A program made the translations under genes and the position numbers. From positions 2,979-66,978 of the forward strand of contig CAIWXI010000137.1 of assembly GCA_903916595.1 (NCBI GenBank): DNA of 64,000 nt, written 5' to 3'. The notes below the pieces were generated by a model that was not told the origin of the DNA, made no database searches, and saw nothing but the letters and a program-made list of their open reading frames with translations. Positions 6,278-17,881 of this stretch are shown piece by piece (within the stretch, counting starts at the first letter, position 1; each line of letters opens with the position of its first letter). Source of the stretch: an uncultured Bacteroidales bacterium (lineage in GTDB: Bacteria > Bacteroidota > Bacteroidia > Bacteroidales > FEN-979).

Positions 6278-7089
6278 AACAGAAAGTGCTGATCGCAGAT
6301 GATTCTGAGGTAAACCTGATGATCATGCGTGATATTTTATTCGATGCGGGTTATGAGATCCTGGTTGCACAAAATGGGCAAATCGCCGTTGAACGAAGCC
6401 TGATTCATATTCCTGATTTAATCCTGATGGACTGGCAGATGCCGGTCATGAATGGTGTGGATGCACTGGAAATTTTAAAAAAGGATACCAGAACCAGCGA
6501 AATCCCGGTCATAATGGTAACAGGTATTGCCACCACGGCAGAGAACCTGCAGGAAGCCTATGAAAAGGGCGCCATCGATTTTATAAAAAAGCCGTTTGAA
6601 AAGATTGAACTGCTGGCGCGGGTCAAAGCTATGTTGTCATTGGTCACCTACTATAAACTGGTTATCGATCACAAAAACAACGAACTTTCAGCTGCTTTCC
6701 TCCAGTTGAGCCGCCTCACTGAATTGCATCAGCAGATATCCAAAAAGCTATCGGTACTCAAAGAAAATTACCCGGCAGTGGAAAACCTGGTAAACGAGAT
6801 CATCGGCAATGTATCGGTACAACTGTTAAATGAAGCATGGAATCGCTATGAAGAGAATTACCGGGAATTAAATCCCACTTTTTACAAACAGTTTCTGGCA
6901 ATGCACCCCGACATTACACCTGCAGAAATCAGGCTTTGCACCCTCTTGCGTTTAAATATGAGTTCCAAGGAAATCGCTGCATCCATTCACCAGGAAGAGA
7001 CCAGTGTCAGGGTGTCCCGTTCGAGGCTCAGAACAAAATTGGGACTTGCTGATTCTGCAAACCTGGTAGGATATTTAATGCAATTCTAA
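6274..7089 (+). CDS. Response regulator (REC + C-terminal LuxR-like HTH)
   Basis: ADD, DLILMDWQMP and KPF receiver motifs; LNMSSKEIA..SRLRTKLGL HTH; 4-bp overlap with the kinase. Confidence 0.92.
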   Translation: MKQKVLIADDSEVNLMIMRDILFDAGYEILVAQNGQIAVERSLIHIPDLILMDWQMPVMNGVDALEILKKDTRTSEIPVIMVTGIATTAENLQEAYEKGAIDFIKKPFEKIELLARVKAMLSLVTYYKLVIDHKNNELSAAFLQLSRLTELHQQISKKLSVLKENYPAVENLVNEIIGNVSVQLLNEAWNRYEENYRELNPTFYKQFLAMHPDITPAEIRLCTLLRLNMSSKEIAASIHQEETSVRVSRSRLRTKLGLADSANLVGYLMQF

Positions 7090-7296
7090 CTTACCTTGTT
7101 TTTCCTGGGGATAGAAGCTTGATAAAGTGATTTACCTGAAGTAAAAGCATAACTTATTTTATGGCACCTTTTGGGATTAGTTAGCCTTTTCCTGATGCCT
7201 TCGAACACAGGGTTGTGCTGTAAAGATAGTTATATAGCCTTTAGAATCTGTATAACGATATCAATACCCTATTACAATTTATATGGATTGAATGTC

Positions 7297-7320
7297 AAAA
7301 AAGCCCCGGTTTCCAGGGGC
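7297..7320 (-). terminator. Intrinsic terminator of radC
   Basis: Minus strand GCCCCTGGAAACCGGGGC followed by TTTTTT, just after the radC stop. Confidence 0.7.
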
Positions 7321-7327
7321 AAAAAAC

Positions 7328-8068
7328 CTACATGGTGCCTTCATCAGCGAAGGAATAATAGACATCATGGGCAACAATGATATGATCAAGTACAGATATT
7401 TCAAGTAATGCGCCGGCATCTTTGAGCTTCTTTGTAATTTTCATATCTGCCTCACTTGGAGTGCATTGCCCTGAAGGATGGCAATGCCCGAGGATTATCG
7501 AGGTTGTATGATTCTCAAGGGCGATGCAGAATATCTTTTTAGGATCAACTACGGTACCTGAAATTCCGCCTTCGGAAACCTTCACCGTTTTCATGATTTT
7601 GTTTGCGCGGTTCAGCAGCAGCATCCAGAATTCTTCATAAGGCAGCTCGCCCATCAGGGAATGGAAAATCGTATAGGCATCCTGGCTTCGGGAGATTTTA
7701 GGTTTGATAACCACTTCGGCAGCATTTCTTCTGCGGGAGAGGGCAAACATGGAAGCAATCTGGCAGGCGCGTTGTTTTCCGATGCCTTTGACTTTTTGCA
7801 GATCGGATATTCCAAGCTTCCAGAATTCGCAGAGGTTGTTCTGGCACGTTGCCATGATTTTCTGAGCAATGTCAAGGGAGTTTTCCTGGGGAGTGCCGGA
7901 GCCAATGAGGATACTGAGCAGTTCTGCATCGGAGAGGCTTGCAGTGCCTTTAAGTAGTAACTTCTCGATGGGGATGTCATCTTCTGCCCAAAATTGCATT
8001 GGGATCCTGTTTTCGTAGGTTGAGCCATTTTGCAGGCCTTGTTGTGAATCCATGAATGATTTTTTCAT
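7328..8068 (-). CDS. radC: RadC/JAB-domain protein
   Basis: LSDAELLSILI, HhH VKGIG, EEFW and H-x-H-PSG..PSEAD..LDHIIV motifs. Confidence 0.95.
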   Translation of the reverse strand: MKKSFMDSQQGLQNGSTYENRIPMQFWAEDDIPIEKLLLKGTASLSDAELLSILIGSGTPQENSLDIAQKIMATCQNNLCEFWKLGISDLQKVKGIGKQRACQIASMFALSRRRNAAEVVIKPKISRSQDAYTIFHSLMGELPYEEFWMLLLNRANKIMKTVKVSEGGISGTVVDPKKIFCIALENHTTSIILGHCHPSGQCTPSEADMKITKKLKDAGALLEISVLDHIIVAHDVYYSFADEGTM

Positions 8069-8107
8069 CTTTGAATGGTTTTATGCAGCTATCATGGCCG
8101 CGGTTAG

Positions 8108-8273
8108 TACTGAAATCTTGCTGCATGGCTATTACCGGGGAGAAATAAATGATGTCAACGGGTGTTGGTCAGATTGCTTTCCAATCTGAATACACTGAAA
8201 GCGGCTATTCCAAAAGGAGGCCGCCCTTGACAGTTTTATTTTCACATAGGTAACTTTGCAATGATTTCGAGTA
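8108..8273 (+). promoter_or_regulatory. Long imperfect hairpin 1; putative Frpo-like ssDNA promoter upstream of radC
   Basis: Paired segments TACTGAAATCTTGC/GCAATGATTTCGAGTA, TTACC/GGTAA, TGTCAA/TTGACA, TCAGATTG/CAATCTGA and GCGGC/GCCGC; CTTG-21 nt-TAACTTTG on the right arm. Confidence 0.6.
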
Positions 8274-8390
8274 ATAGTGCGCTGGCTTTTTGCTACTTTT
8301 TTCAAAAAGGTGCCCGTTTTCATCCGGTTTTCTTTTTGCCAGTCTTTTTCTTTGCCGGTGCCTGAACAAAGAAAAAGCTGTACGACCATT

Positions 8391-8419
8391 AAAAAAGCAG
8401 GCAGTCTGTGACTGCCTGC
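8391..8419 (-). terminator. Intrinsic terminator of small acidic ORF
   Basis: Perfect 10-bp stem GCAGGCAGTC/GACTGCCTGC plus T6 on the minus strand, 8 nt after the stop. Confidence 0.85.
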
Positions 8420-8427
8420 CGGGGGAG

Positions 8428-8598
8428 TTAGTTTTCCATTCTGAAATTTTTCTGAAACTCATTAAATTCCCATTCGTAGAGGGCCGATTGTTCGTCGGTC
8501 ATCTCTTCTGTAAAGCCTGGGTAGTAAATGCTCTCAATGTGTTGGACAAACATTTCTTCGAATGATTGTTTGCGGGTTTCTCTAGCAAGTGCAGTCAT
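8428..8598 (-). CDS. Unannotated 56-aa acidic, aromatic-rich protein
   Basis: Manual translation MTALARETRKQSFEEMFVQHIESIYYPGFTEEMTDEQSALYEWEFNEFQKNFRMEN; A-rich upstream region and its own terminator; below the ORF-track size cutoff. Confidence 0.75.
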   Translation of the reverse strand: MTALARETRKQSFEEMFVQHIESIYYPGFTEEMTDEQSALYEWEFNEFQKNFRMEN

Positions 8599-8621
8599 GG
8601 TAGTAAGGTTTTAGATTGTGG

Positions 8622-8815
8622 ATACTTGAAATTTTCTGACCGCGAAGCGTTAAACCGGATCGATTGGATAATGTCCAGGGTGTTGGTCAGATTGACTGCC
8701 AATCTGAATACACTGAAAGCGACCGTTTCTTGTCGCCCTTGACTGTTCCAAGCTACAGCGCCTTACCAGCTGGAAGCCCTGTCGATGTAGGTAGCTTTGT
8801 AAGGATTTCAAGTAT
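8622..8815 (+). promoter_or_regulatory. Long imperfect hairpin 2; putative Frpo-like ssDNA promoter upstream of the 56-aa ORF
   Basis: Perfect 11-bp base ATACTTGAAAT/ATTTCAAGTAT, then TTGGA/TCCAA, TCAGATTG/CAATCTGA and GCGAC/GTCGC; TAGCTTTG at 8792-8799. Confidence 0.6.
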
Positions 8816-8840
8816 TATATTGTGGGGTGGGGTTTTGCTC

Positions 8841-9503
8841 TTTCTTTTGCTTCTTTTCTTTGAGCGGACACAAGAAAAGAAGTCGATTTTTGCCGTTTTG
8901 CAAAATCTCCACGAAGTGCCCGCCACGCCTTATCGGGAAGTGCAATTGCACTAACTCGGGAATAGGGATATGTACATTGATTCTGAATATATTAGGATTC
9001 AAAAAGCAGTTTGCAGGCATACGGTTTGCTCGCATGGCCGGTTAATTGCTTTAAAAAAGTTGACAAGGAATTCTACACCATCATGAACGGCAAACAATTT
9101 TTAAAAGACAACTGCGGCAAAAATCTCGGGTTACTATTTCCATTTGGCTGGTTGGACCCATTTTTTTCCCGGAAATGAAAATTTGATAGGGATTTTGATA
9201 AAAAAAGTTTCCCCAATCCGCCGTAAAAATAACTGCAATGCAAAGTCGGAAAAAGTCGGATTGCCCCTCGTAAAACTCAATGGTAACAAGGAATTTCGTA
9301 GAAAAATACAGGGCTGGAAGATGGTTTCTTTTGCTTCGTTTCTTGCCATCCGCACAAAGAAAAGAAGTCCGGCGAAATAGCTTTTATCAAAAATATTTTG
9401 TCATCTCATTGATTATGATAATATTAAGGGCTAAAAATTCCCTTAAAATTATCAAATCCTCACAGAGTGCACGCCCCGCCCTATCGGAAAATGCAATTGC
9501 ACT
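8841..9503. repeat. Degenerate duplicated module (pyrimidine/purine hairpin plus palindrome-ended ~50-bp box)
   Basis: 8841-8884 resembles 9325-9369; 8903-8952 resembles 9454-9503. Confidence 0.75.
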
Positions 9504-9728
9504 TTTTCGTTTTTTCAGGGTTATATGAATTGACTTTGTTTGTATAAATTCAGGTAATCAGATAGTTAATGAATGTGCTCCCCTACAAACCAATGGCATT
9601 CCAATAAAAAGAGGGGAGGCCTTGGATCATTAACCCGGAATCAGGATGATCCCCTAGCATTGATTATTGACATCTACTAAAGTCGTATGAAAAAAAATGA
9701 AGGGAATGGTAGGGAACCTGGAACGAGT

Positions 9729-10586
9729 TTATCGGACGTTCATCAAAAATTCATTGAAGTCTTTATGATCAGGATAAATGACCGGCGCCCAGTCTTTGAC
9801 CTGATCGCATTTGCTAACGATCTTTTGAGATGCCGCCATCCCTGCCGGGTCATTGTCCAGGAATAGATTCACTTCATTTGTCTGCTGCAATTCAGTTTCG
9901 ATCCGTGGCAAAAAAGATAATGAGTTTAAAACAATCGTCCGGAACCTTGGGATCTTGTTATAATGGGTGCAGCAGGATAAAAAATCCATGAATCCCTCAA
10001 ACACATTTAAAATGGAATTATCGGCGCCGGGAATGGTGGTAAAGTATTTTGGACTCGAACCTGTTTTAAAGAAGGTGTTTCGCAATTCATAACCGTCTTT
10101 ATCATTTTTAAAAGCCAGGGCGAAGTACTTCCTGTCATGGACAGTATAAAAGGCTTCTTTCAAAAACAGCTGGGCAAACGGAAGTGCAATTGCACGTGAT
10201 TTCAGATATTGAATCAAAACCGGATTGCGTAACGATTGTATACGATCAATCTTAATTTTGCCCGATTCATCAGCAGGGCAGGACTGAATATAATTTACAG
10301 GGGAGAAGGAATTTCCACCAATAATATCAATGGTTTCCCTGAAGCTTGTATGGTGCAATTTCATAACCAGGTCTATTAAATTGCCTCCTTCACCGCTCCC
10401 GAAATCGTACCAGACATTCCTGGATAGATGCACTTTAAAGCTGGGAGTCTTCTCCTGGCGCATGGGACTGATGAACCATGCATTTCCATACTGAATTTTG
10501 ATGGGCTTGTGACCGTTTTGATTCAGGTAGTCCATTAAATGAGTTTTCCTCGCCTCTGAGATAATCATTGGGATTTTGTTTTTCAC
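9729..10586 (-). CDS. DNA primase-like protein (CHC2-type N-domain + Toprim)
   Basis: SPMRQEKTPSF..WYDFGSGEGG, VFEGFMDFLS, FLDNDPAG and KDFNEFL motifs; the true start may be ATG 10568. Confidence 0.9.
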   Translation of the reverse strand: MKNKIPMIISEARKTHLMDYLNQNGHKPIKIQYGNAWFISPMRQEKTPSFKVHLSRNVWYDFGSGEGGNLIDLVMKLHHTSFRETIDIIGGNSFSPVNYIQSCPADESGKIKIDRIQSLRNPVLIQYLKSRAIALPFAQLFLKEAFYTVHDRKYFALAFKNDKDGYELRNTFFKTGSSPKYFTTIPGADNSILNVFEGFMDFLSCCTHYNKIPRFRTIVLNSLSFLPRIETELQQTNEVNLFLDNDPAGMAASQKIVSKCDQVKDWAPVIYPDHKDFNEFLMNVR

Positions 10587-10642
10587 TATATTCGACTGCT
10601 ATTCTGATGGTTAAAAAAAAGAGAATATTTTTATTCTTATTG

Positions 10643-10790
10643 AAGTAGTTGGCAACTACACCTACTATCTTACTACATCCATTAAATATGAAGCTGTGTA
10701 GTAGGTTGTAGTAGGATTCATTGAAACACCTACTACAATGAAAACCCTTGATAATATTGATAAACAACATAATGTAGTAGGTGTAGTAAG
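10643..10790. repeat. Iteron cluster (CCTACTACA/TGTAGTAGG); putative replication origin
   Basis: About 8-9 copies in both orientations around AT-rich spacers, between the helicase and primase genes. Confidence 0.7.
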
Positions 10791-10796
10791 TGAATA

Positions 10797-12008
10797 TTAA
10801 ACATTTTGTTCCTTAATAAAATAGCCATAAACCGGAAACGCGTTTCCCTGAACTCTTTTAGAGCCCTTCGGAAAACCCAGTTGAACAAGCGCTTTCCCAA
10901 CTTTTTCAACACTTCTCAACTCCGCTCTGCGATCTGACATGGAGTACAGATAATCTCTGATTTCACTGGCAGTTCTGAAGGCATCGTTATCGAAATCCGT
11001 TCCGGGTGTCAGATATTTTTGGATGTATTCATACTCTACACTATTTTGCTGGAACTGCTGATTCCGGGTTTCATTTTCCTTTATTTCTTCTCGCGTCAGC
11101 TGAAATTTGAAACCACTCTTGTAAAGGGAGTATGCCTGGCTCCAAACCAGGTCTATCGGGATATCATAATAGGCAAAGTTGATTTTCTCAATCTCAAAAC
11201 ACAGCCATCGTACGCTCCCCGTAGTATCGGTGAGGAATGTATCTTCATTCGTTGATCCGACAAATGAAGCCCTGCGGGGATCAGTTTGCGCTTTACGTGC
11301 AAAAGGATGACGAACCCTGACACTGTCTTTGGAAAAAAGGCTTTTCAGCTGATTAAGCTCGAATTTAGTACGGGAACTTAGTTCATCCAGGTTGATAATG
11401 ATGTTTTCACACAGGCTGATCAACCCGTCTTTGTCTCCTGGAAGTGACTCAGTATAATAATTGTGAAGAGCCGGTGGACAAAAGTACCGGCAGTAGGTGC
11501 TTTTACCGGTATGCTGTACGTGTCCCACCAAGATAAAGGCATGTTTATTAAATGACCGGTCATCGATGGCACAGGAAATCATGCGCACAAACATCTTTTT
11601 TAAATGGTGGTCAAATTGCTCCTGATCTAAAGCTTTCACATGTTTGGCCAGTGCATCGATATAGTCCCTGTCACCGGGATTCCAGGCAGACAGCCCTGCC
11701 AGGTAATGTTTAAATGGATTGTAAGTCTCAACAAACTCCGAATTGAGCAACGCGCAAAGGTTTCCAAACGAAATCCGGTAACCATTTGTCAGTAATTGGA
11801 TGTAGAGATTGTTCTCATTGAGCACTTTGTAATCAGGTTCCCCCTTTTTACGCCCTTCGACAACGCCGGTGATTTCGTTAAATCGAAGGTCATACCAGTC
11901 CTTAAGCGCTTCCTGAACCTCTACAATCGCCAGAGGTTTTCTATTTTCGGAAGTTGTTTCTTCTGTGTTCTTTTGTTTTTTCATCCGAGAGGTTATTTGC
12001 CCGGGCAA
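10797..12008 (-). CDS. VirE/VapE-family P-loop NTPase (putative replicative helicase)
   Basis: Walker A GHVQHTGKST, Walker B IINLDEL, RRASFVGSTNED.FLTDTTGSVRW. Confidence 0.9.
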   Translation of the reverse strand: MPGQITSRMKKQKNTEETTSENRKPLAIVEVQEALKDWYDLRFNEITGVVEGRKKGEPDYKVLNENNLYIQLLTNGYRISFGNLCALLNSEFVETYNPFKHYLAGLSAWNPGDRDYIDALAKHVKALDQEQFDHHLKKMFVRMISCAIDDRSFNKHAFILVGHVQHTGKSTYCRYFCPPALHNYYTESLPGDKDGLISLCENIIINLDELSSRTKFELNQLKSLFSKDSVRVRHPFARKAQTDPRRASFVGSTNEDTFLTDTTGSVRWLCFEIEKINFAYYDIPIDLVWSQAYSLYKSGFKFQLTREEIKENETRNQQFQQNSVEYEYIQKYLTPGTDFDNDAFRTASEIRDYLYSMSDRRAELRSVEKVGKALVQLGFPKGSKRVQGNAFPVYGYFIKEQNV

Positions 12009-12076
12009 TCAACACTGGTTGATATACCTGGCACATGAATATATTCTGTGAATTGAAAACGGCTAGGGATGTTTGG

Positions 12077-12448
12077 TTAAAAGGATCTCCGATTCTTTTT
12101 TACAGAAATATAGGCGTCAGCAACGGCCTCAATCTCGGAATTGGTCTTTTTCCTGCCGGATTTGATCCATCCGGTAAGCTCCTGGTGGGAAAAATACAAG
12201 CGATTGCCTCTTTTACAAACGGGAACTTCTTTCCGTTGTACCAAACCATAAACGGTAGGGACCGACAAATGGAGGATTGCAGCAGCCTGCTTGATTGTTA
12301 ATAATTGGTCGGCTTCGGGTAGGGGAGAGTTACTTTTTGAAAGTAACAGCTGTTCAATGATTTCCAGTTTATCAAATAACTGGCTTACAGCTTCGGGTAA
12401 TTTTTCAAATGTCATTTCCATTGCGTACATGTTTAATTTGTGAAACAT
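12077..12448 (-). CDS. HTH_17 excisionase-like DNA-binding protein
   Basis: TFEKLPEAV..LLTIKQAAAILHLSVPTVYGLV..KRGNRLYF; likely start at 12421. Confidence 0.9.
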   Translation of the reverse strand: MFHKLNMYAMEMTFEKLPEAVSQLFDKLEIIEQLLLSKSNSPLPEADQLLTIKQAAAILHLSVPTVYGLVQRKEVPVCKRGNRLYFSHQELTGWIKSGRKKTNSEIEAVADAYISVKKNRRSF

Positions 12449-12523
12449 GCAGCAATGTTACCGGGACGGTTAGCAGGGTTGCAATATGGTTGGGAGTAAC
12501 ATGGTCAAAACCCGGTTAAGATT

Positions 12524-13450
12524 TTATATTTTGCTGATCAGATAAGTTCCCGTCGCTTTTTCGAGTATGATGTTCAGAACAGGCTTTTGACACTTATCTT
12601 TTCTGGTTGACATGATTTCGCTCAGATAAGGCAGTGTGTATGTTTTCAGTTTATTCCGGTAACGGTACGAAAAATTTATGCTAATCCAGTATTCAAGCTC
12701 CTTCTTCTGGCAACCTCTGATGATATCGCAATCGTATAATTGTTTGAATGCATCCGCCAGACGGTTTCCGGAGCCAAGGAATAACAAAGGTTTAGGAGCA
12801 TTCTCGCCGCCGTTTAGCAGCGCATAAAACTCAATTTGATCTTCCGGAGAAAAAAAATCCCGGAGGATCTCATAAATTTCAGCTATCGATTCGTTAACAA
12901 AGATAGGTTTGATAACTGGCATGGCAGGTTCCAGTTGCTTTGTTGTTGGTTTGGTTATGTCTGTCAGTTCTTCGCGTTCCCTTATTGGGCTAAGGTTGAT
13001 CGTTTCCAGGATGAAAAAACGGTCATTGCAAATTTCAAGAAATGGGATGTTATACAGAATGCAATAGTCCTGGATTACCACGAAAAGTAATGAAAAGAGA
13101 TAGTGGGCCCTGACTTCTGAAATTCCCAGGTCATCCGATACATCCTGCCCTTTGTACCAAATTGGATAATATAGTTCATCGATTTCGAGATGCACGGGTT
13201 CAATATCTTCAAATTTTTTAGGAATAACGATTACCCTGTCGAGTTCATCGATGTAAAACATGAGAAGATCCTTCTTCTCCTGGAATGTCGATTTTGTTAA
13301 AAGATTTAACCCAAGCTCCCTCCTGAAGGGCTCGACGAATTCTTCATGCAGGTTGGTATCCATCCCGGCAAGTACTTCTATTTTCTGTGGGTCGTCGTCC
13401 TGTTGAAAGGAAAGTATATTCAGGCATTTATCCAATGCATTGGTTTTCAT
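12524..13450 (-). CDS. Hypothetical protein of the integrative element
   Basis: 308-aa ORF co-oriented between the integrase and HTH genes; no motif recognised. Confidence 0.7.
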   Translation of the reverse strand: MKTNALDKCLNILSFQQDDDPQKIEVLAGMDTNLHEEFVEPFRRELGLNLLTKSTFQEKKDLLMFYIDELDRVIVIPKKFEDIEPVHLEIDELYYPIWYKGQDVSDDLGISEVRAHYLFSLLFVVIQDYCILYNIPFLEICNDRFFILETINLSPIREREELTDITKPTTKQLEPAMPVIKPIFVNESIAEIYEILRDFFSPEDQIEFYALLNGGENAPKPLLFLGSGNRLADAFKQLYDCDIIRGCQKKELEYWISINFSYRYRNKLKTYTLPYLSEIMSTRKDKCQKPVLNIILEKATGTYLISKI

Positions 13451-13483
13451 AAGGATTTTGGGATATATAGTGGGTGCGGAAAG

Positions 13484-14722
13484 CTAAAATTTTAATACTA
13501 TTTTGTCTGTGGCATCACGTTTGGCCTGGTTTATAATCTTGGTATAAACCTGGGTCGTTCTTGGATCCCGGTGTCCAAGCATTTTTGAAACAGTGTAAAA
13601 ATCTGTTCCATTGCTTAGCTGCAATGTTGCGTAGGTATGCCTGAAACAATGAAATGTTATATTCTTTGTGATCCCGGCAGACCCGATCCATTGGGCTAAA
13701 TGTTTATTGGAATAAGCAGAATAGGTAAGCCCATTAAAAACTTTTTGATTTGGCTCTTTGCGCTCCCCCATCAGGTTATAGGCTTGTTCAGAGATTGGCA
13801 TCATTTCTACGCCATTTGTCTTTTGCTGGGTGAATTGGATAAAGTATCCGTTACCATTGATAAATTCCACTTCACCCCATGTAAGTTTTGCAATATCTCC
13901 GAAACGGAATCCGGTGAGTGCAGAGAATAAAGCTGCATTTTTTAACAAAGGGTTTAGACAATCCTTCTGTATAAGGTTATTCAATTCTTCCAATGTTAAG
14001 AAATTCCGATGGGTTTCAGCTTCCTTAATACGATCGATCCTGGCATTTAAATTATAGCGGAGAAATCCGTCTTTGTGCGCCTGTTTAAGCGTTGCTTTAA
14101 ATTTGTTGAAATAGGAAAAGGCTGAATTTTGAGAAAGTTTTACTTTTTCGCTTCGGTTACTGTGGGTGTTGCAGAGGTAATCCTTAAAATCATTGCAGAA
14201 TTTTTCATCAAGATCAACAAACTTTAATTTTCCGCCGGTGAATTTTTCTAGATAATGATACGCCGAAACCCAGTTATCATGGTTGGAGGCCTTCCTTTTT
14301 TCCTTCAGTTCACAGAAATATTGTAAAAAGGAGGTATTCTCCATTTCCCTGATCTTTAACTGGGCCTTCTCGTAACCGGTGTATATTTCCGGCTTATTCA
14401 GTTGATTATCCCTTTTCTGCCTGATCTGTTCAGCAATCTGAAGGGTTTCCTCATTATGCTTTTTATCAATTGGGTTCAACTTGATTTTTTTTGGTTCACC
14501 CTTCTTACCCAAAATAGGAATCAATCGTTTCTGTTCCTTGCCATTTTTATCAAGGTACATTTGTTCTTCAGTCTCATTTTCATTGAACAGGAACAGGTTC
14601 AGGAACTCCCTGCGAGTGGGTTTGTCCGTTTCAGGATGGAGGATCGGAGGATAAAAATCGAGGTACAGACTATGCCTGTTATCCGATATATTCTTAAATC
14701 TTAGCTTTACTTTGGTAACCAT
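13484..14722 (-). CDS. Tyrosine recombinase/integrase
   Basis: R (TGFRFGD), K (QQKT), HCFRH, LGH and TQVY catalytic residues intact; Bacteroidota arm-binding N-terminus SLYLDFYP. Confidence 0.96.
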   Translation of the reverse strand: MVTKVKLRFKNISDNRHSLYLDFYPPILHPETDKPTRREFLNLFLFNENETEEQMYLDKNGKEQKRLIPILGKKGEPKKIKLNPIDKKHNEETLQIAEQIRQKRDNQLNKPEIYTGYEKAQLKIREMENTSFLQYFCELKEKRKASNHDNWVSAYHYLEKFTGGKLKFVDLDEKFCNDFKDYLCNTHSNRSEKVKLSQNSAFSYFNKFKATLKQAHKDGFLRYNLNARIDRIKEAETHRNFLTLEELNNLIQKDCLNPLLKNAALFSALTGFRFGDIAKLTWGEVEFINGNGYFIQFTQQKTNGVEMMPISEQAYNLMGERKEPNQKVFNGLTYSAYSNKHLAQWIGSAGITKNITFHCFRHTYATLQLSNGTDFYTVSKMLGHRDPRTTQVYTKIINQAKRDATDKIVLKF

Positions 14723-14730
14723 ATATATTA

Positions 14731-15300
14731 TTATTTCAGTATATTATCGATCATATTTTTCGGAACATAAGCGAACCAGCCTTTTTTTATTTTTGGTATT
14801 TTGTTCCTTTTAATCAGTGATTGCAAAGCGCCTTCAGAAATACCATACTTTTTTTGAACCTCGGTAAGATTATACCAGTCATTTTCGTCAAATTCAACAT
14901 CATCATCTTCACTTTCAATTTCCTTAGTATCAGATTCAACCGGAAACAGAACAAAAAATTTGTCAATTTCTGATCGCTTAATGATTGTTTTCCTTTGTGC
15001 GAGATTTACCCCTTTGATCGTCCCCATGTTAATAAGGCGGTAGACAGTAGGCAAAGAACTATTCAGAAGTTTAGCAACATCCTTAACCGTTAAAAACTCT
15101 TTTGCTTTAATCTCGTCAAGAGGTTGTGCTTTAACCTGCTTGATTTCTTTGTTACTCGTTTCAATTTTTTGAGCTCTGATCCTTGCTTTGTACCCTCGTT
15201 TCGCGCAATTATCGCCACAAAATTGTGTAACGGTTGTCCTGGCTGTGAACTCCTTTCCACAGAATTGACAGATTCGTTGTACCTTAATATTAGTACTCAT
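14731..15300 (-). CDS. Zn-ribbon + HTH excisionase-like protein
   Basis: CQFC..FCGDNC, FLTVKDVAKLL..PTVYRLI and a second HTH at the C-terminus. Confidence 0.85.
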   Translation of the reverse strand: MSTNIKVQRICQFCGKEFTARTTVTQFCGDNCAKRGYKARIRAQKIETSNKEIKQVKAQPLDEIKAKEFLTVKDVAKLLNSSLPTVYRLINMGTIKGVNLAQRKTIIKRSEIDKFFVLFPVESDTKEIESEDDDVEFDENDWYNLTEVQKKYGISEGALQSLIKRNKIPKIKKGWFAYVPKNMIDNILK

Positions 15301-15362
15301 TTAGCATATTTTAATATAATTAAGATAAAATAAGTATCATGTTTTCGCCAATAATTCAATGG

Positions 15363-15411
15363 AGGTACAAAACAGGTCCTGTTTTTAATTTGAGGTACAA
15401 CAAAGGTACAA
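15363..15411. repeat. AGGTACAA direct repeats near the att end
   Basis: Copies at 15363, 15393 and 15404; partial AGGTCC at 15374. Confidence 0.65.
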
Positions 15412-15465
15412 ACATATACAGAACGGATCACTAACGGTACGCAAAAGATATTAACAATAATAATT

Positions 15466-15491
15466 AAAAAAGCCCATATTTACTGGGCTTT
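15466..15491 (-). terminator. Terminator downstream of mnmE
   Basis: Minus strand AAAGCCCA-GTAAATA-TGGGCTTTTTT. Confidence 0.65.
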
Positions 15492-15534
15492 ACGTTACTT
15501 ATACAGTTTTGGTTATGTGTTCGTTTTGTGCCGG

Positions 15535-16932
15535 TTACTTTCCGATGCAGAACCTCGAAAAAATATTTCCCAGAATATCATCTGTCGTGATTTCGCCCGT
15601 GATCTCGCCGATGTGATGAAGTGCAAGGCGGATGTTGCTTGAAAGAAGGTCGGCGGGGATGTTCCGGACCAGGCCTTGTTCAACTTCAACTATTGCTTCA
15701 ATTGAACGTTGTAATGCTTCGTAATGCCGCGTGTTGGATATGACCAGTCCGTCGTTTATTCCGCTTATGCTTACCTTGCTTACAAGACTTTCGGCGATCT
15801 GGTGGATGTTCTCGTGGCGCTTGGCTGAAACAAAGATGGTTTCCTGGCTCACGAAGGATGTGAACCCCTTTGGAAGCTTCTTTACCTTATCGATTTTGTT
15901 GCCGACCAGGATAAGATGTCTTAAAGGATTTTCGGCAATGTCTTTGAAATCTTCAAGTGCGTTAACAACATCTTCGAACGATTCCTTTGTGGCATCGAAA
16001 ACATACAGCACCATGCTTGCCTCACTAATCTTTTGCCATGTTTTTTCGATCCCCAGGGTCTCGATCTCATTTTCGGCAGCCCGCAAGCCGGCAGTGTCGA
16101 TAAAGCGGAAGCTGAACCCGCCGATCACAATAGTGTCTTCGATCGCATCGCGGGTAGTCCCCGGTATTTCTGAGACGATCGCTTTTTCTTCATTCAGGAT
16201 GGCATTCAGCAGAGTTGATTTGCCGGCATTCGGCTTGCCTATGATTGCCACGGGAATACCTGTTTTGATAACATTTCCTAGTTTAAAGGAACCGAGCAAG
16301 GATGAAATCTCGCTTTTCAATGTTTTCACCAGCCTGATAAGCCCTCCGCGGTCGGCAAATTCAACATCTTCCTCGCTGAAATCGAGTTCCAGTTCCAGCA
16401 GTGAAACAAAATCTAACAGCTGTTCGCGAAGAGCCTTGAGCTTTTTCGAAAATCCGCCTCTGAGCTGGGTAAAGGCCAGTTCATGCGACATCTTCGAGTG
16501 GGCTGAAATGAGGTCGGCTATACCTTCGGCCTGTGTGAGGTCGAGTTTCCGGTTGAGAAACGCCCTTAGAGTAAATTCTCCGGGATTGGCCATCCGCAGT
16601 CCATGATCAAGCAAGACTTCCATGATCCGTTGCTGCATATAAACCGAGCCATGTACCGAAAGTTCGGCCACATCCTCACCGGTGTAGGAATTGGGAGCCC
16701 TGAAAATACTCAGCAGAACATCATCCAGAGGCCCTTCATCAGATATGATAGTTCCATGGTGGATGGTGTGGGAGGCTGCTTGCTGTATTGATTTTTTTTT
16801 ATTTGACGGGCGGAAGATGTTTTCCAGGGTTTTAAATGTATCCGGTCCGGAAATGCGGGCTACAGCAATAGCGCCTGTTCCCGGGGCAGTCGAGATCGCA
16901 CAGATGGTATCGTTAAGTTGAAAGCGGGCCAT
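15535..16932 (-). CDS. mnmE: tRNA modification GTPase MnmE/TrmE
   Basis: [26 protein letters not shown] and C-terminal FCIGK; start set at MARFQ. Confidence 0.98.
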
Positions 16933-17005
16933 AAGGCACAAAAATATCAAATTAAACATTGCCGGTGTTTCAAAAGAATTTAATTTTGGCATGAAAATAT
17001 TTTCT

Positions 17006-17881
17006 ATGAGCGTACTTGTTGATGAACATTCGAAGGTCCTTGTCCAGGGCTTTACAGGGCATGAGGGATCCTTTCATGCTGGCCAGATGATTGAATACGG
17101 GACTAATGTAGTAGGGGGTGTCACTCCGGGCAAAGGTGGGACCATCCATCTTGATCGCCCGGTATTCAATACCGTATCTGATGCCGTAAAGGCCACCGGG
17201 GCTAATGTTTCGGTTGTTTTTGTGCCTCCTTCAATGGCTGCCGACGCGATCGTAGAGGCTGCTGTTGCAGGGATAAAACTTATTGTATGTATTACCGAGG
17301 GTATTCCCGTGATTGATATGGTTACGGTTAAGGAATACCTTAAGGGCCACGATGTACGGCTTATTGGTCCGAATTGTCCGGGTATCATAAGCCCGCCTCA
17401 TACCAAGATCGGGATCATGCCCGGTTTTATTCACCAGAGAGGTTGTATCGGGATTGTTTCCCGTTCGGGGACTTTGTCATATGAAGCGGTTGACCAGATA
17501 ACCAAGACAGGCCTCGGACAAACCACCATGATCGGGGTGGGAGGGGATCCCATCCCCGGAACCACGATAAAGGAAGCAGTCCAGCTACTGATGGAAGATC
17601 CCGAAACCAAAGGCATTGTGATGATAGGGGAGATAGGCGGCAACATGGAAACTGATGCGGCATATTGGATTAAAGACCACGGGACCAAGCCGGTTGTAAG
17701 CTTTATTGCCGGGGCTACTGCTCCTAAAGGACGTACCATGGGACATGCAGGCGCTATCGTTGGTGGAAAGTCAGATACCGCCGAGGCCAAAAAAGAAATC
17801 TTAAGAGAATGCGGAATTCATGTAGTTGATTCGCCGGCGGACCTGGGGACAGCAATGGTCAAAGCACTTGGAAAATGGTGA
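17006..17881 (+). CDS. sucD: Succinyl-CoA synthetase alpha subunit
   Basis: VQGFTG, GPNCPG, SRSGTL and MGHAGA motifs. Confidence 0.98.

What the first reader, a model, noticed from the sequence alone, without database searches (positions are those of the whole stretch)
8108..8815. Tandem Frpo-like single-stranded-DNA promoters with Bacteroidota consensus driving a small acidic protein and RadC
Seen: two related long imperfect hairpins (8108-8273 and 8622-8815) end 39 and 23 nt before minus-strand ATGs. They share a base stem TACT(T)GAAAT/ATTTC(R)AGTA and the same apical motif. The far (right) arm of the plus strand carries CTTG and a perfect TAnnTTTG (TAACTTTG 8251, TAGCTTTG 8792), while the matching positions on the gene's own sense strand are degenerate (TAGCCATG, ACGCTTCG). 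In copy 1 the -33/-7 spacing is 21 nt. In copy 2 it is 50 nt, but a side hairpin (~8756-8781) would loop out ~26 nt on folding. Established: the F-plasmid Frpo is a fold-back promoter active on ssDNA, plasmid leading regions carry anti-defence genes, and Bacteroidota primary promoters are TTTG/TAnnTTTG. Inference: if the plus strand is single-stranded, the right arm acts as non-template and the left arm as template, so RNAP would run leftward into the ORFs. This would be an early-expression cassette adapted to the Bacteroidota sigma factor.
Basis: partly seen in the sequence, partly recalled or inferred. Interest (0 to 1): 0.87.

Follow-up and report, generated by a model that had tools for sequence, protein, structure and literature searches.

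The report
Fold-back promoter hairpins in Bacteroidales phage-like islands
Two copies of a conserved 200-base DNA hairpin sit just upstream of a RadC gene and a small acidic gene; the hairpin looks built so that the host RNA polymerase starts transcription only when that strand is single-stranded, but it lies in phage-like islands, not in a conjugative plasmid.

Summary
The two hairpins (8108-8273, 8622-8815) belong to a family of about 200-nt elements, found in 47 of 89 genomes of the host family and absent from Rfam.

Evidence that it is a fold-back promoter:
- On a structure-blind alignment of 47 copies, 90% of pair cells pair and 28 of 49 pairs show compensatory changes.
- G-T wobbles outnumber A-C three to one, so the plus strand, antisense to the genes, is the one that folds.
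- Its far arm carries an exact Bacteroidota -7 box (TAnnTTTG) in 56 of 66 copies. The gene-sense strand carries none.
- The -33/-7 spacer is 20-60 nt on the far arm but 21 nt on the template arm in 58 of 66, because a variable side hairpin loops out.
- Copies are co-oriented. Each lies 15-81 nt upstream of RadC, ArdC, SSB or small acidic genes, often just after a terminator.

This supports a single-stranded-DNA promoter that works like Frpo but is not homologous to it (confidence about 0.6).

The conjugative leading-region part is not supported. TraJ and TraG are in 0 of 89 family genomes and a relaxase in 1 of 89. The carriers are integrase/primase islands and prophage-like elements. Where the single-stranded DNA comes from is unknown.

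The parts
8091..8289 (+). Copy 1 of the fold-back element (core hairpin 8108-8273), upstream of RadC
   Evidence: Covariance model R1: 191.6 bits, E 1.6e-39. DNA fold -29.7 kcal/mol, z -4.7.
8108..8119 (+). Copy 1 base helix P1, template side. It pairs with 8260-8273. The predicted start template base is 8117.
   Evidence: Pair map, with 8117 paired to 8263. Helix 1 has 91.8% of cells paired and 5 of 10 pairs with compensatory changes. The box spans -12 to -5 in Flavobacterium (PMC9723704, passages). The start position is inferred.
8226..8232 (+). Copy 1 -33-like CTTG (inside TTGACA), paired with TGTCAA at 8153-8158
   Evidence: The aligned column set reads CTTG in 35, CTTT in 17, TTTA in 8, CTTA in 4 and other in 2 of 66 copies.
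8251..8258 (+). Copy 1 -7 box TAACTTTG on the far (non-template) arm
   Evidence: An exact TAnnTTTG is present on this strand in 56 of 66 copies. Information is 1.4-2.0 bits at the six specified positions. Mean pairing probability is about 0.5.
8160..8224 (+). Copy 1 Y-shaped cap: short helices, apical hairpin A (8169-8189) and hairpin B (8201-8224). This is the most conserved part.
   Evidence: Helices 7-10 have 93-96% of cells paired, with compensatory changes in 14 of 20 pairs.
8606..8834 (+). Copy 2 of the fold-back element (core hairpin 8622-8815), upstream of the 56-aa acidic ORF
   Evidence: R1: 147.4 bits, E 6.8e-30. DNA fold -31.1 kcal/mol, z -3.6.
8738..8741 (+). Copy 2 -33-like CTTG
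8750..8781 (+). Copy 2 side hairpin, inserted in the far arm between the -33 and -7 elements
   Evidence: The linear spacer is 50 nt but the template-arm spacer is 21 nt. Related inserts fold at -4.1 to -7.2 kcal/mol.
8792..8799 (+). Copy 2 -7 box TAGCTTTG. The predicted start template base is about 8633.
   Evidence: The start position is inferred as for copy 1.
7328..8068 (-). RadC-like JAB protein (246 aa). Its ATG lies 39 nt beyond the base of copy 1.
   Evidence: Pfam RadC 1.6e-40 and UPF0758_N 4.1e-21. Distance.
8428..8598 (-). 56-aa acidic protein of no known family. Its ATG lies 24 nt beyond the base of copy 2.
   Evidence: ORF. No Pfam, PHROG or NCBIfam family. Seventeen relatives of 44-58 aa sit behind other copies.
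8396..8420 (-). Intrinsic terminator of the acidic-gene unit, between that gene and copy 1
   Evidence: 11-bp stem with 7 G-C pairs, followed by a T run.
8274..8390 (+). Conserved right-flank module: GTGCGCTGG, then two A/T-rich hairpins (about 8290-8314 and 8353-8385). A shorter version lies at 8816-8885.
   Evidence: Seen by eye in many right flanks; a strict pattern flagged 17 of 66. Repeats D8, I1 and I2. Function unknown.

Best explanation
Each copy is a cis-acting fold-back promoter that is built when the plus strand, the template strand of the neighbouring genes, is single-stranded.

Proposed structure (inferred from the alignments and folds):
- The strand folds into a long imperfect stem of about 60 nt per arm, capped by a Y-shaped pair of hairpins.
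- The far (3') arm supplies the non-template strand, with a -33-like (C/T)TT(G/T/A) and an exact Bacteroidota sigma-A -7 box, TAnnTTTG.
- The near (5') arm supplies the template strand.
- The -7 box lies in a weakly paired stretch, opposite a variable arm segment.
- The base helix P1 acts as the downstream duplex.

Proposed action (inferred): host RNA polymerase would start about 5 nt past the box, on template base about 8117 for copy 1 and about 8633 for copy 2. It would then run leftward out of the hairpin into RadC or the acidic gene. Once the DNA is double-stranded, the hairpin is gone and the gene-sense strand offers no -7 box, so these genes would be expressed only while the DNA is single-stranded.

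The same RNA could also prime complementary-strand synthesis, as described for Frpo.

The carriers are integrative islands (integrase, HTH_17, VapE helicase, Toprim primase) and prophage-like elements of environmental Bacteroidales, labelled Prolixibacteraceae or Draconibacterium in public records.

Shown here: conserved structure, strand asymmetry, motif, spacing and gene linkage.
Inferred: that RNA polymerase uses it.
Unknown: where the single strand comes from. Candidates are entry as single-stranded DNA, rolling-circle or strand-displacement replication after excision, and hairpin extrusion.
For: 1. Structure. On the structure-blind MAFFT alignment of 47 copies, 90.0% of cells pair, against 81.9% in shuffles and at most 51.3% when partners are slid. 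Compensatory changes occur in 28 of 49 pairs, and 0 of 500 shuffles reach the covariation score.

2. Strand. G-T versus A-C cells number 98 to 32 on that alignment, or 55 to 21 when counted once per 85%-identity cluster. On the model alignment of 66 copies they number 149 to 52, or 97 to 40 per cluster.

3. Motif.
- An exact TAnnTTTG is on the plus strand inside 56 of 66 copies.
- In the aligned far-arm segment the best match is 6 of 6 specified positions in 55 of 66 copies.
- It is on the gene-sense strand inside 0 of 66, and within 250 nt upstream in 4 of 66.
- The mirrored arm never exceeds 5 of 6 specified positions.
- Information is 1.4-2.0 bits at the six specified box positions against 0.08-0.64 bits in the opposite arm.
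- Near-matches on the gene-sense strand are at chance level: 96 against 98 +/- 9.

4. The box is the host's promoter box. It occurs 325 times on the sense strand in 768 upstream regions of 150 nt, against about 43 expected, and peaks 20-60 nt before the ATG.

5. Spacing. The far-arm spacer is 20-60 nt, while the template-arm spacer is 21 nt in 58 of 66 copies. Of 23 distinct inserts of 14 nt or more, 15 fold at -2 kcal/mol or better, and their sequences are unrelated.

6. Gene linkage.
- An ATG-started ORF begins 7-81 nt beyond the base in 58 of 66 copies: RadC 18, acidic 17, ArdC 12, an unknown 118-148 aa family 7, and SSB, Zn-ribbon, DUF6573 and two others 1 each.
- The nearest-neighbour element has the same gene class downstream in 47 of 54 cases, against about 14 by chance.

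7. Own transcription unit. A gene-sense terminator lies within 220 nt upstream of 26 of 64 copies, against 2 of 64 on the other strand. In the window it lies at 8396-8420.

8. Co-orientation. Copies share one strand in 33 of 34 multi-copy loci. Of neighbouring ORFs, 305 of 397 are templated by the hairpin strand.

9. The -7 box is weakly paired. Mean pairing probability is 0.48-0.75 across the box (0.48-0.57 at its interior positions), against roughly 0.8-0.9 in most of the flanking helices.
Against: - No transcription start was measured.
- The minus strand folds nearly as well (z -4.0 and -3.5).
- Contigs from two metatranscriptome libraries, from relatives 85-99% alike, cover 7912-8242 and 8033-8343. 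They therefore include element sequence to the right of the predicted start, and the second spans the whole element. If these are RNA, a transcript crosses the element. DNA carry-over cannot be excluded, and contigs give neither strand nor ends.
- No source of single-stranded DNA was found. TraJ (PF07863) and TraG (TIGR03783) are over cut-off in 0 of 89 family genomes, and a PF03432 relaxase is in 1 of 89, far from the copies. No plasmid carries the element.
- Some carriers look like tailed-phage elements, which package double-stranded DNA.
- In one viral contig a copy also precedes a portal-like and endolysin operon, which does not fit a purely 'early anti-defence' role.
- The -33 element is only TTG-like.
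- In 29 of 66 copies the linear spacer is 20-23 nt, so the same box could also fire rightward from double-stranded DNA.
- The G-T excess counts related sequences, so it overstates independence.
Confidence: 0.6

Rival explanations
1. The hairpin is an RNA structure in the leader of the minus-strand mRNAs. It could be an RNase III-type processing site, an antiterminator or a translational regulator, transcribed from a promoter further upstream.
For: The minus strand folds almost as well as the plus strand (z -4.0 and -3.5). All genes are co-directional, so read-through transcripts are plausible. RNA-library contigs span the element: 8033-8343 in one study and 7912-8242 in another.
Against: G-T pairs on the plus strand would be C-A mismatches in this RNA, and they outnumber A-C three to one. 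The rival does not explain a TAnnTTTG with free 'nn' positions on the antisense strand. A terminator lies just upstream of at least 26 of 64 copies, and no gene-sense -7 box lies within 250 nt upstream in 62 of 66. No Rfam family matches.
Confidence: 0.12
2. The conserved box is an ordinary double-stranded promoter that fires rightward. It would make an antisense or interfering RNA against the upstream unit, and the arm pairing would be incidental.
For: The box and a TTG lie on the plus strand with a canonical 20-23 nt linear spacer in 29 of 66 copies. A conserved module follows on the right.
Against: In 37 of 66 copies the linear spacer is 24-60 nt, which is unsuitable in duplex DNA. The near arm lies about 150 nt upstream of such a promoter and yet covaries with the far arm, including P1, which lies beyond the start site. 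This rival leaves the downstream genes without a promoter.
Confidence: 0.1
3. The element is chiefly an RNA-polymerase-dependent single-strand origin, like ssoA of rolling-circle plasmids or the M13 minus-strand origin. It would prime complementary-strand synthesis, with gene expression as a by-product.
For: The geometry is the same as in the best explanation. Several co-oriented copies lie on one strand. The carriers encode primase, helicase and SSB. Frpo was described as serving both transcription and primer RNA synthesis; here this rests on the title of the Masai and Arai paper as it appears in reference lists, since the paper itself was not read.
Against: Each copy is tightly linked to a start codon 15-81 nt away and co-evolves with the gene class downstream, which an origin would not need. 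No rolling-circle Rep was seen among the proteins scanned.
Confidence: 0.1
4. The element is a non-autonomous mobile repeat (MITE or IS200/IS605-type palindromic element) that inserts in front of genes.
For: It is multi-copy (6 in the window's own genome), hairpin-forming and strand-biased.
Against: Copies within one genome are only 52-85% alike (medians per class pair), and element subtypes follow the downstream gene class in 47 of 54 cases. No transposase was seen nearby.
Confidence: 0.03

Closest known systems
Frpo (Frpo1/Frpo2) single-stranded-DNA promoters of the F and ColIb-P9 plasmid leading regions
   Same: A non-coding stretch folds, when single-stranded, into a stem-loop that rebuilds the primary-sigma promoter boxes. 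It drives the genes templated by that strand, including ssb and anti-restriction-type genes. It occurs in two or more related copies a few kb or less apart. (Frpo properties are from passages of PMC9849209, and PMC11541004.)
   Different: There is no sequence similarity: no match in 72,556 plasmid records. The boxes are the Bacteroidota -33/-7 type, not TTGACA/TATAAT. A variable side hairpin keeps the spacing constant. There is a Y-shaped cap. The carriers are chromosomal islands and prophage-like elements in genomes without detectable conjugation genes. Activity is untested.
RNA-polymerase-dependent single-strand origins (ssoA/ssoU of rolling-circle plasmids; minus-strand origin of Ff phages). 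Recalled, not read here.
   Same: Strand- and orientation-specific hairpins on single-stranded DNA that host RNA polymerase holoenzyme recognises as a promoter-like structure.
   Different: Those make short primers and are not coupled to a downstream gene. Here every copy faces a start codon. No rolling-circle Rep was found.
Phage N4 early hairpin promoters. Recalled, not read here.
   Same: A phage-borne promoter that exists only as a hairpin in one DNA strand.
   Different: N4 hairpins are tiny (5-7 bp) and are read by a virion RNA polymerase. Here a 200-nt fold presents host sigma-A boxes.
radC and STAXI motifs (Weinberg et al. 2010, PMC2864571)
   Same: Conserved structures next to radC, ssb, antirestriction and integrase genes. 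For STAXI the authors raised a possible single-stranded-DNA form (passages).
   Different: The paper's table lists radC as proteobacterial. Neither motif, nor any other of 4227 Rfam families, matches the window at the gathering score, or at E up to 1 in 7900-9700.

Membership tests
Frpo/ssi single-stranded promoters (as a homologous family) | Sequence similarity to known Frpo/ssi elements of enterobacterial plasmids | tested here: not met
   blastn (word 11) of copy 1 against 72,556 PLSDB plasmids gave no match at E 1e-3. A direct comparison with an Frpo sequence was not made, because none was fetched.
Frpo-type mechanism (single-stranded fold-back promoter) | The single strand folds so that one arm presents the host primary-sigma boxes with proper spacing, and the other arm is the template of the downstream genes | tested here: met
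   In silico only.
Frpo-type mechanism (single-stranded fold-back promoter) | Transcription by host RNA polymerase from single-stranded but not double-stranded DNA | not testable with these tools
   RNA-library contigs are ambiguous.
Conjugative leading-region element | Location on the transferred strand next to oriT of a plasmid or ICE that has a relaxase and a type IV secretion system | tested here: not met
   TraJ and TraG are over cut-off in 0 of 89 family genomes and a relaxase is in 1 of 89. None of the window's eight island proteins scanned is a relaxase. These are mostly metagenome-assembled genomes, so absence is not proven.
Bacteroidota sigma-A promoter | -7 box TAnnTTTG and an upstream TTTG about 19-21 nt away (the spacing range is recalled) | tested here: inconclusive
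   The -7 box is exact in 56 of 66 copies. The upstream element is CTTG, CTTT or TTTA at 21 nt counted along the template arm. TTTG proper is absent from the aligned position.
Rfam structured RNA families (radC, STAXI and others) | A covariance-model match | tested here: not met
   no match.

The most novel reading that the evidence does not exclude
A group of prophage-like elements and their satellite-like islands in environmental Bacteroidales passes through a long-lived single-stranded stage of fixed polarity, in which the antisense strand of all their genes is exposed. They would use fold-back hairpins as their general promoters, for anti-restriction and single-strand-handling genes and also for a portal and lysis operon. 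Gene expression would then be gated by DNA strandedness, without any conjugation machinery.
Probability: 0.2. Interest if true: 0.9.

Novelty: new variant of a known kind. Interest (0 to 1): 0.75.

Why it matters
Single-stranded-DNA promoters have been shown experimentally only for enterobacterial plasmids. The large survey of leading regions searched with the sigma-70 consensus and does not mention Bacteroidota (PMC11541004, passages). Two full-text searches pairing 'ssDNA promoter' or 'single-stranded DNA promoter' with Bacteroid(es) found no paper.

If this reading is right, the same trick arose independently with the unusual Bacteroidota promoter code. It would come with a clear structural rule: spacing is kept on the template arm while a side hairpin loops out.

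It would also sit in phage-like and satellite-like elements. That points to an unrecognised single-stranded phase in their life cycle, and it would give a simple sequence marker for genes expressed in that phase (ArdC, RadC, SSB and several unknown small proteins).

The element is short enough to test directly with oligonucleotides and purified polymerase.

Tried and rejected
- Rfam, whole window at gathering score and 7900-9700 at E up to 1: nothing.
- PLSDB plasmids and INPHARED phages with copy 1, blastn word 11: no match in either.
- RNAalifold on the 47-copy alignment recovered only the apical helices. I therefore projected the single-sequence fold of copy 1 onto the alignment and tested that structure with the count of structure pairs.
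- RNA evidence. The look-up of sequencing runs listed three runs recorded as RNA and one guessed to be RNA, with 5-7% of the sampled words. All are kept as contigs. Laid at 85% likeness, they cover parts of the stretch. They give no strand, start or end, and may hold DNA, so I use them only as a caution. Parts without cover mean nothing.
- Conjugation context: PF03432 and PF07863 on five genomes, then PF07863, PF03432 and TIGR03783 on all 89 family genomes. These were essentially negative. I did not test other relaxase families or coupling proteins.
- Island ends: no tRNA in 6500-17500, and no direct repeat longer than 10 nt between 7041-7340 and 15281-15560. The ends are undetermined.
- The 56-aa acidic protein has no family in Pfam, PHROGs or NCBIfam. 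The Atlas gives only unnamed clusters.
- A plus-strand ORF family beside some copies (8 loci) looks like the shadow of the unknown 144-aa gene on the other strand. I did not treat it as a gene.
- My strict pattern for the right-flank hairpin flagged only 17 of 66 copies, and more are visible by eye. I give no firm count.
Supplementary tables of the Frpo papers were not seen and may list further candidate promoters. The metagenome-contig scan, structure prediction and complex prediction were not used.
Full report
**What is there.** The window is G000:C137:2979-66978. Between the RadC gene (7328-8068, minus strand) and a Toprim primase gene (9729-10586, minus strand) lie two related elements. 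Each sits directly upstream of a minus-strand gene. Copy 1 (8108-8273) precedes RadC. Copy 2 (8622-8815) precedes a 56-aa acidic ORF (8428-8598). As single-stranded DNA the plus strands fold at -29.7 and -31.1 kcal/mol (z -4.7 and -3.6), and the minus strands fold nearly as well. An intrinsic terminator for the acidic-gene unit lies at 8396-8420, between that gene and copy 1.

**It is a family.**
- Copy 1 finds relatives in 47 of 89 genomes of the host family, often several per genome and clustered.
- A covariance model (R1; 211 positions, 49 pairs) finds 6 copies in the window's own genome. It finds hits in 6 of 151 genomes sampled across the order, G000 included, and in 0 of 150 other genomes sampled across the phylum.
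- A pattern for the far arm hits 58 stretches in the species-representative genome collection. Nearly all are environmental Bacteroidales or Bacteroidota bins, several of them labelled Prolixibacteraceae or Draconibacterium. The same pattern hits 4 IMG/VR viral contigs.
- Rfam, PLSDB and INPHARED give nothing.

**The structure is selected, and on the plus strand.** I projected the fold of copy 1 onto a structure-blind MAFFT alignment of 47 distinct copies. On this alignment 90.0% of cells pair and 28 of 49 pairs show changes on both sides. None of 500 shuffles reaches the covariation score, and sliding the partners drops pairing to 51% or less.

The architecture has four parts:
- a base helix P1;
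- a weakly paired stretch;
- helices P3 and P4;
- a Y-shaped cap with two hairpins.

G-T cells outnumber A-C cells 98 to 32 on the blind alignment, or 55 to 21 when counted once per 85%-identity cluster. On the model-based alignment of 66 unique full-length copies they number 149 to 52, or 97 to 40 per cluster. A fold on the gene-sense strand would give the reverse. These counts come from related sequences, so they are not a formal probability.

**The promoter reading.**
- The far arm carries TAnnTTTG exactly in 56 of 66 copies, and the two 'n' positions are the variable ones (information 0.6 and 1.3 bits, against 1.4-2.0 bits at the other six).
- The arm opposite it is almost unconserved (0.08-0.64 bits).
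- Read on the gene-sense strand, that opposite arm never gives more than 5 of 6 specified positions.
- The gene-sense strand has no exact box inside any of the 66 copies, and has one within 250 nt upstream in only 4. Near-matches there are at shuffle level, 96 against 98 +/- 9.
- The box is this organism's own promoter signal. It occurs 325 times on the sense strand in 768 upstream regions of 150 nt, about 43 expected from the genome-wide density, and it peaks 20-60 nt before the ATG.
- A TTG-containing element (CTTG 35, CTTT 17, TTTA 8, CTTA 4, other 2 of 66) is base-paired in P4.

The strongest single result concerns spacing. Between the TTG element and the box, the far arm has 20 to 60 nt. 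The template arm has 21 nt in 58 of 66 copies, with a range of 17-22. The extra far-arm letters sit at one site. Of 23 distinct inserts of 14 nt or more, 15 fold on their own at -2 kcal/mol or better, and their sequences are unrelated. The geometry is therefore kept in the folded form, not in the duplex.

With DNA parameters, mean pairing probability is 0.48-0.75 across the box (0.48-0.57 at its interior positions), against roughly 0.8-0.9 in most of the flanking helices. The non-template box may thus be presented partly melted.

In Flavobacterium the box spans -12 to -5 (PMC9723704, passages). On that basis the start falls in P1: template base 8117 for copy 1 (a 49-nt leader) and about 8633 for copy 2 (about 35 nt). 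This placement is inferred.

**Gene linkage.**
- In 58 of 66 copies an ATG-started ORF begins 7-81 nt beyond the base, with class-specific distances: 22-24 nt for acidic genes, 37-40 for most RadC genes and 52-56 for ArdC genes.
- The classes are RadC 18, small acidic proteins 17, ArdC 12, an unknown 118-148 aa family 7, and single cases of SSB, a Zn-ribbon protein, DUF6573 and two others.
- Most of the eight copies without an ORF lie at contig ends. A few ATG assignments are doubtful, and one 45-aa ORF is probably wrong.
- Element subtypes follow the gene class. The nearest-neighbour element has the same class downstream in 47 of 54 cases, about 14 expected by chance. This argues against an autonomous repeat.
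- A gene-sense terminator lies within 220 nt upstream of 26 of 64 copies, against 2 of 64 on the other strand. Each copy therefore tends to open a new transcription unit.
- Copies share one strand in 33 of 34 multi-copy loci. Of neighbouring ORFs, 305 of 397 are templated by the hairpin strand, and some of the other 92 are shadow ORFs.

**Context: not a conjugative leading region.** The window's element lies at the end of a block that runs from about 7.1 to 15.3 kb. The block holds an integrase, two HTH_17 proteins, an unknown 308-aa protein, a VapE-like helicase and a CHC2/Toprim primase. It is flanked by mnmE. Its ends were not found.

Two complete relatives carry the same backbone with more cargo behind further copies: an ArdC, Zn-ribbon and SSB-like set; RadC with an Eco57I-type restriction-modification set; and RloB/AAA_21.

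Other copies lie in elements with a large terminase (phrog_2, E 3e-9), a head maturation protease (2e-52), an endolysin (4e-34) and a weak portal-like protein. In one viral contig a copy precedes the portal-like and endolysin operon.

CTnDOT-type TraJ and TraG are over cut-off in 0 of 89 family genomes, and a PF03432 relaxase is in 1 of 89. Most of these genomes are metagenome-assembled. They may have lost mobile DNA, and other relaxase families were not searched. Even so, nothing ties the element to conjugation.

**How it most likely works, and what remains open.** The data fit a promoter that exists only in the folded plus strand and fires into the adjacent gene. By mechanism this is an Frpo analogue (Frpo properties from passages of PMC9849209 and PMC11541004), rebuilt with the Bacteroidota promoter code.

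Three points hold the confidence at about 0.6:
- No start site was measured.
- RNA-library contigs from two studies run across the element.
- The origin of the single strand is unknown.

Three sources are compatible with the geometry: entry of that strand into a new cell, displacement of that strand by rolling-circle or strand-displacement replication after excision, and hairpin extrusion. None was tested.

The main rivals are an mRNA-leader structure, a rightward duplex promoter, a priming origin and a mobile repeat. Each fails on at least one of the strand asymmetry, the spacing rule, the upstream terminators or the gene linkage.

**Novelty.** Two full-text searches for single-stranded promoters together with Bacteroid(es) found no paper. 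The 2024 leading-region survey searched with sigma-70 boxes and does not mention Bacteroidota (supplements not seen). The 2010 motif catalogue lists radC (Proteobacteria) and STAXI, neither of which matches here. I rate the element a new variant of a known kind.

Noticed in passing
window 8274-8390, 8816-8885, 9325-9370: A second conserved module follows many copies on the right. It consists of a GTGCGSTGG-like word and then two A/T-rich hairpins with T-run 5' arms and A-run 3' arms. A third hairpin of this kind stands alone at 9340-9367. Its function is unknown, and it is not a classical terminator on either strand.
   Followed up: partly
window 8835-9728: A non-coding stretch of about 900 nt lies between copy 2 and the primase gene. 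It holds a 50-nt repeat (8903-8952 and 9454-9503, 82% alike) that ends in a 12-bp palindrome, which recurs at 10180-10195. This is a candidate replication origin or protein-binding array. RNA-library contigs pile up at 9406-9486.
   Followed up: no
window 12524-13450 (minus strand): A conserved 308-aa island protein between the integrase and the HTH_17 gene has no Pfam, PHROG or NCBIfam family.
   Followed up: partly
L034 (G052:C1:1668001-1688000): Downstream of the leftmost copy in one complete relative lies a run of very large co-oriented genes (1229, 1134, 1313 and 757 aa). This may be a defence cargo. It was not annotated.
   Followed up: no
L058/L092, L089, L105, L108: Four bins labelled Alphaproteobacteria, Geobacteraceae, Syntrophomonas and Chlorobiaceae hold the element on contigs with the same gene set. 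Mis-binning looks more likely than transfer across phyla.
   Followed up: no
L004 399-758; L036 18119-18478: A 119-aa protein sits at the end of the ArdC and Zn-ribbon operon, where an SSB might be expected. It matches no family.
   Followed up: partly
window 7304-7318 (minus strand): A terminator-like hairpin lies right after RadC, at the apparent left end of the island and next to a histidine-kinase and response-regulator pair.
   Followed up: no
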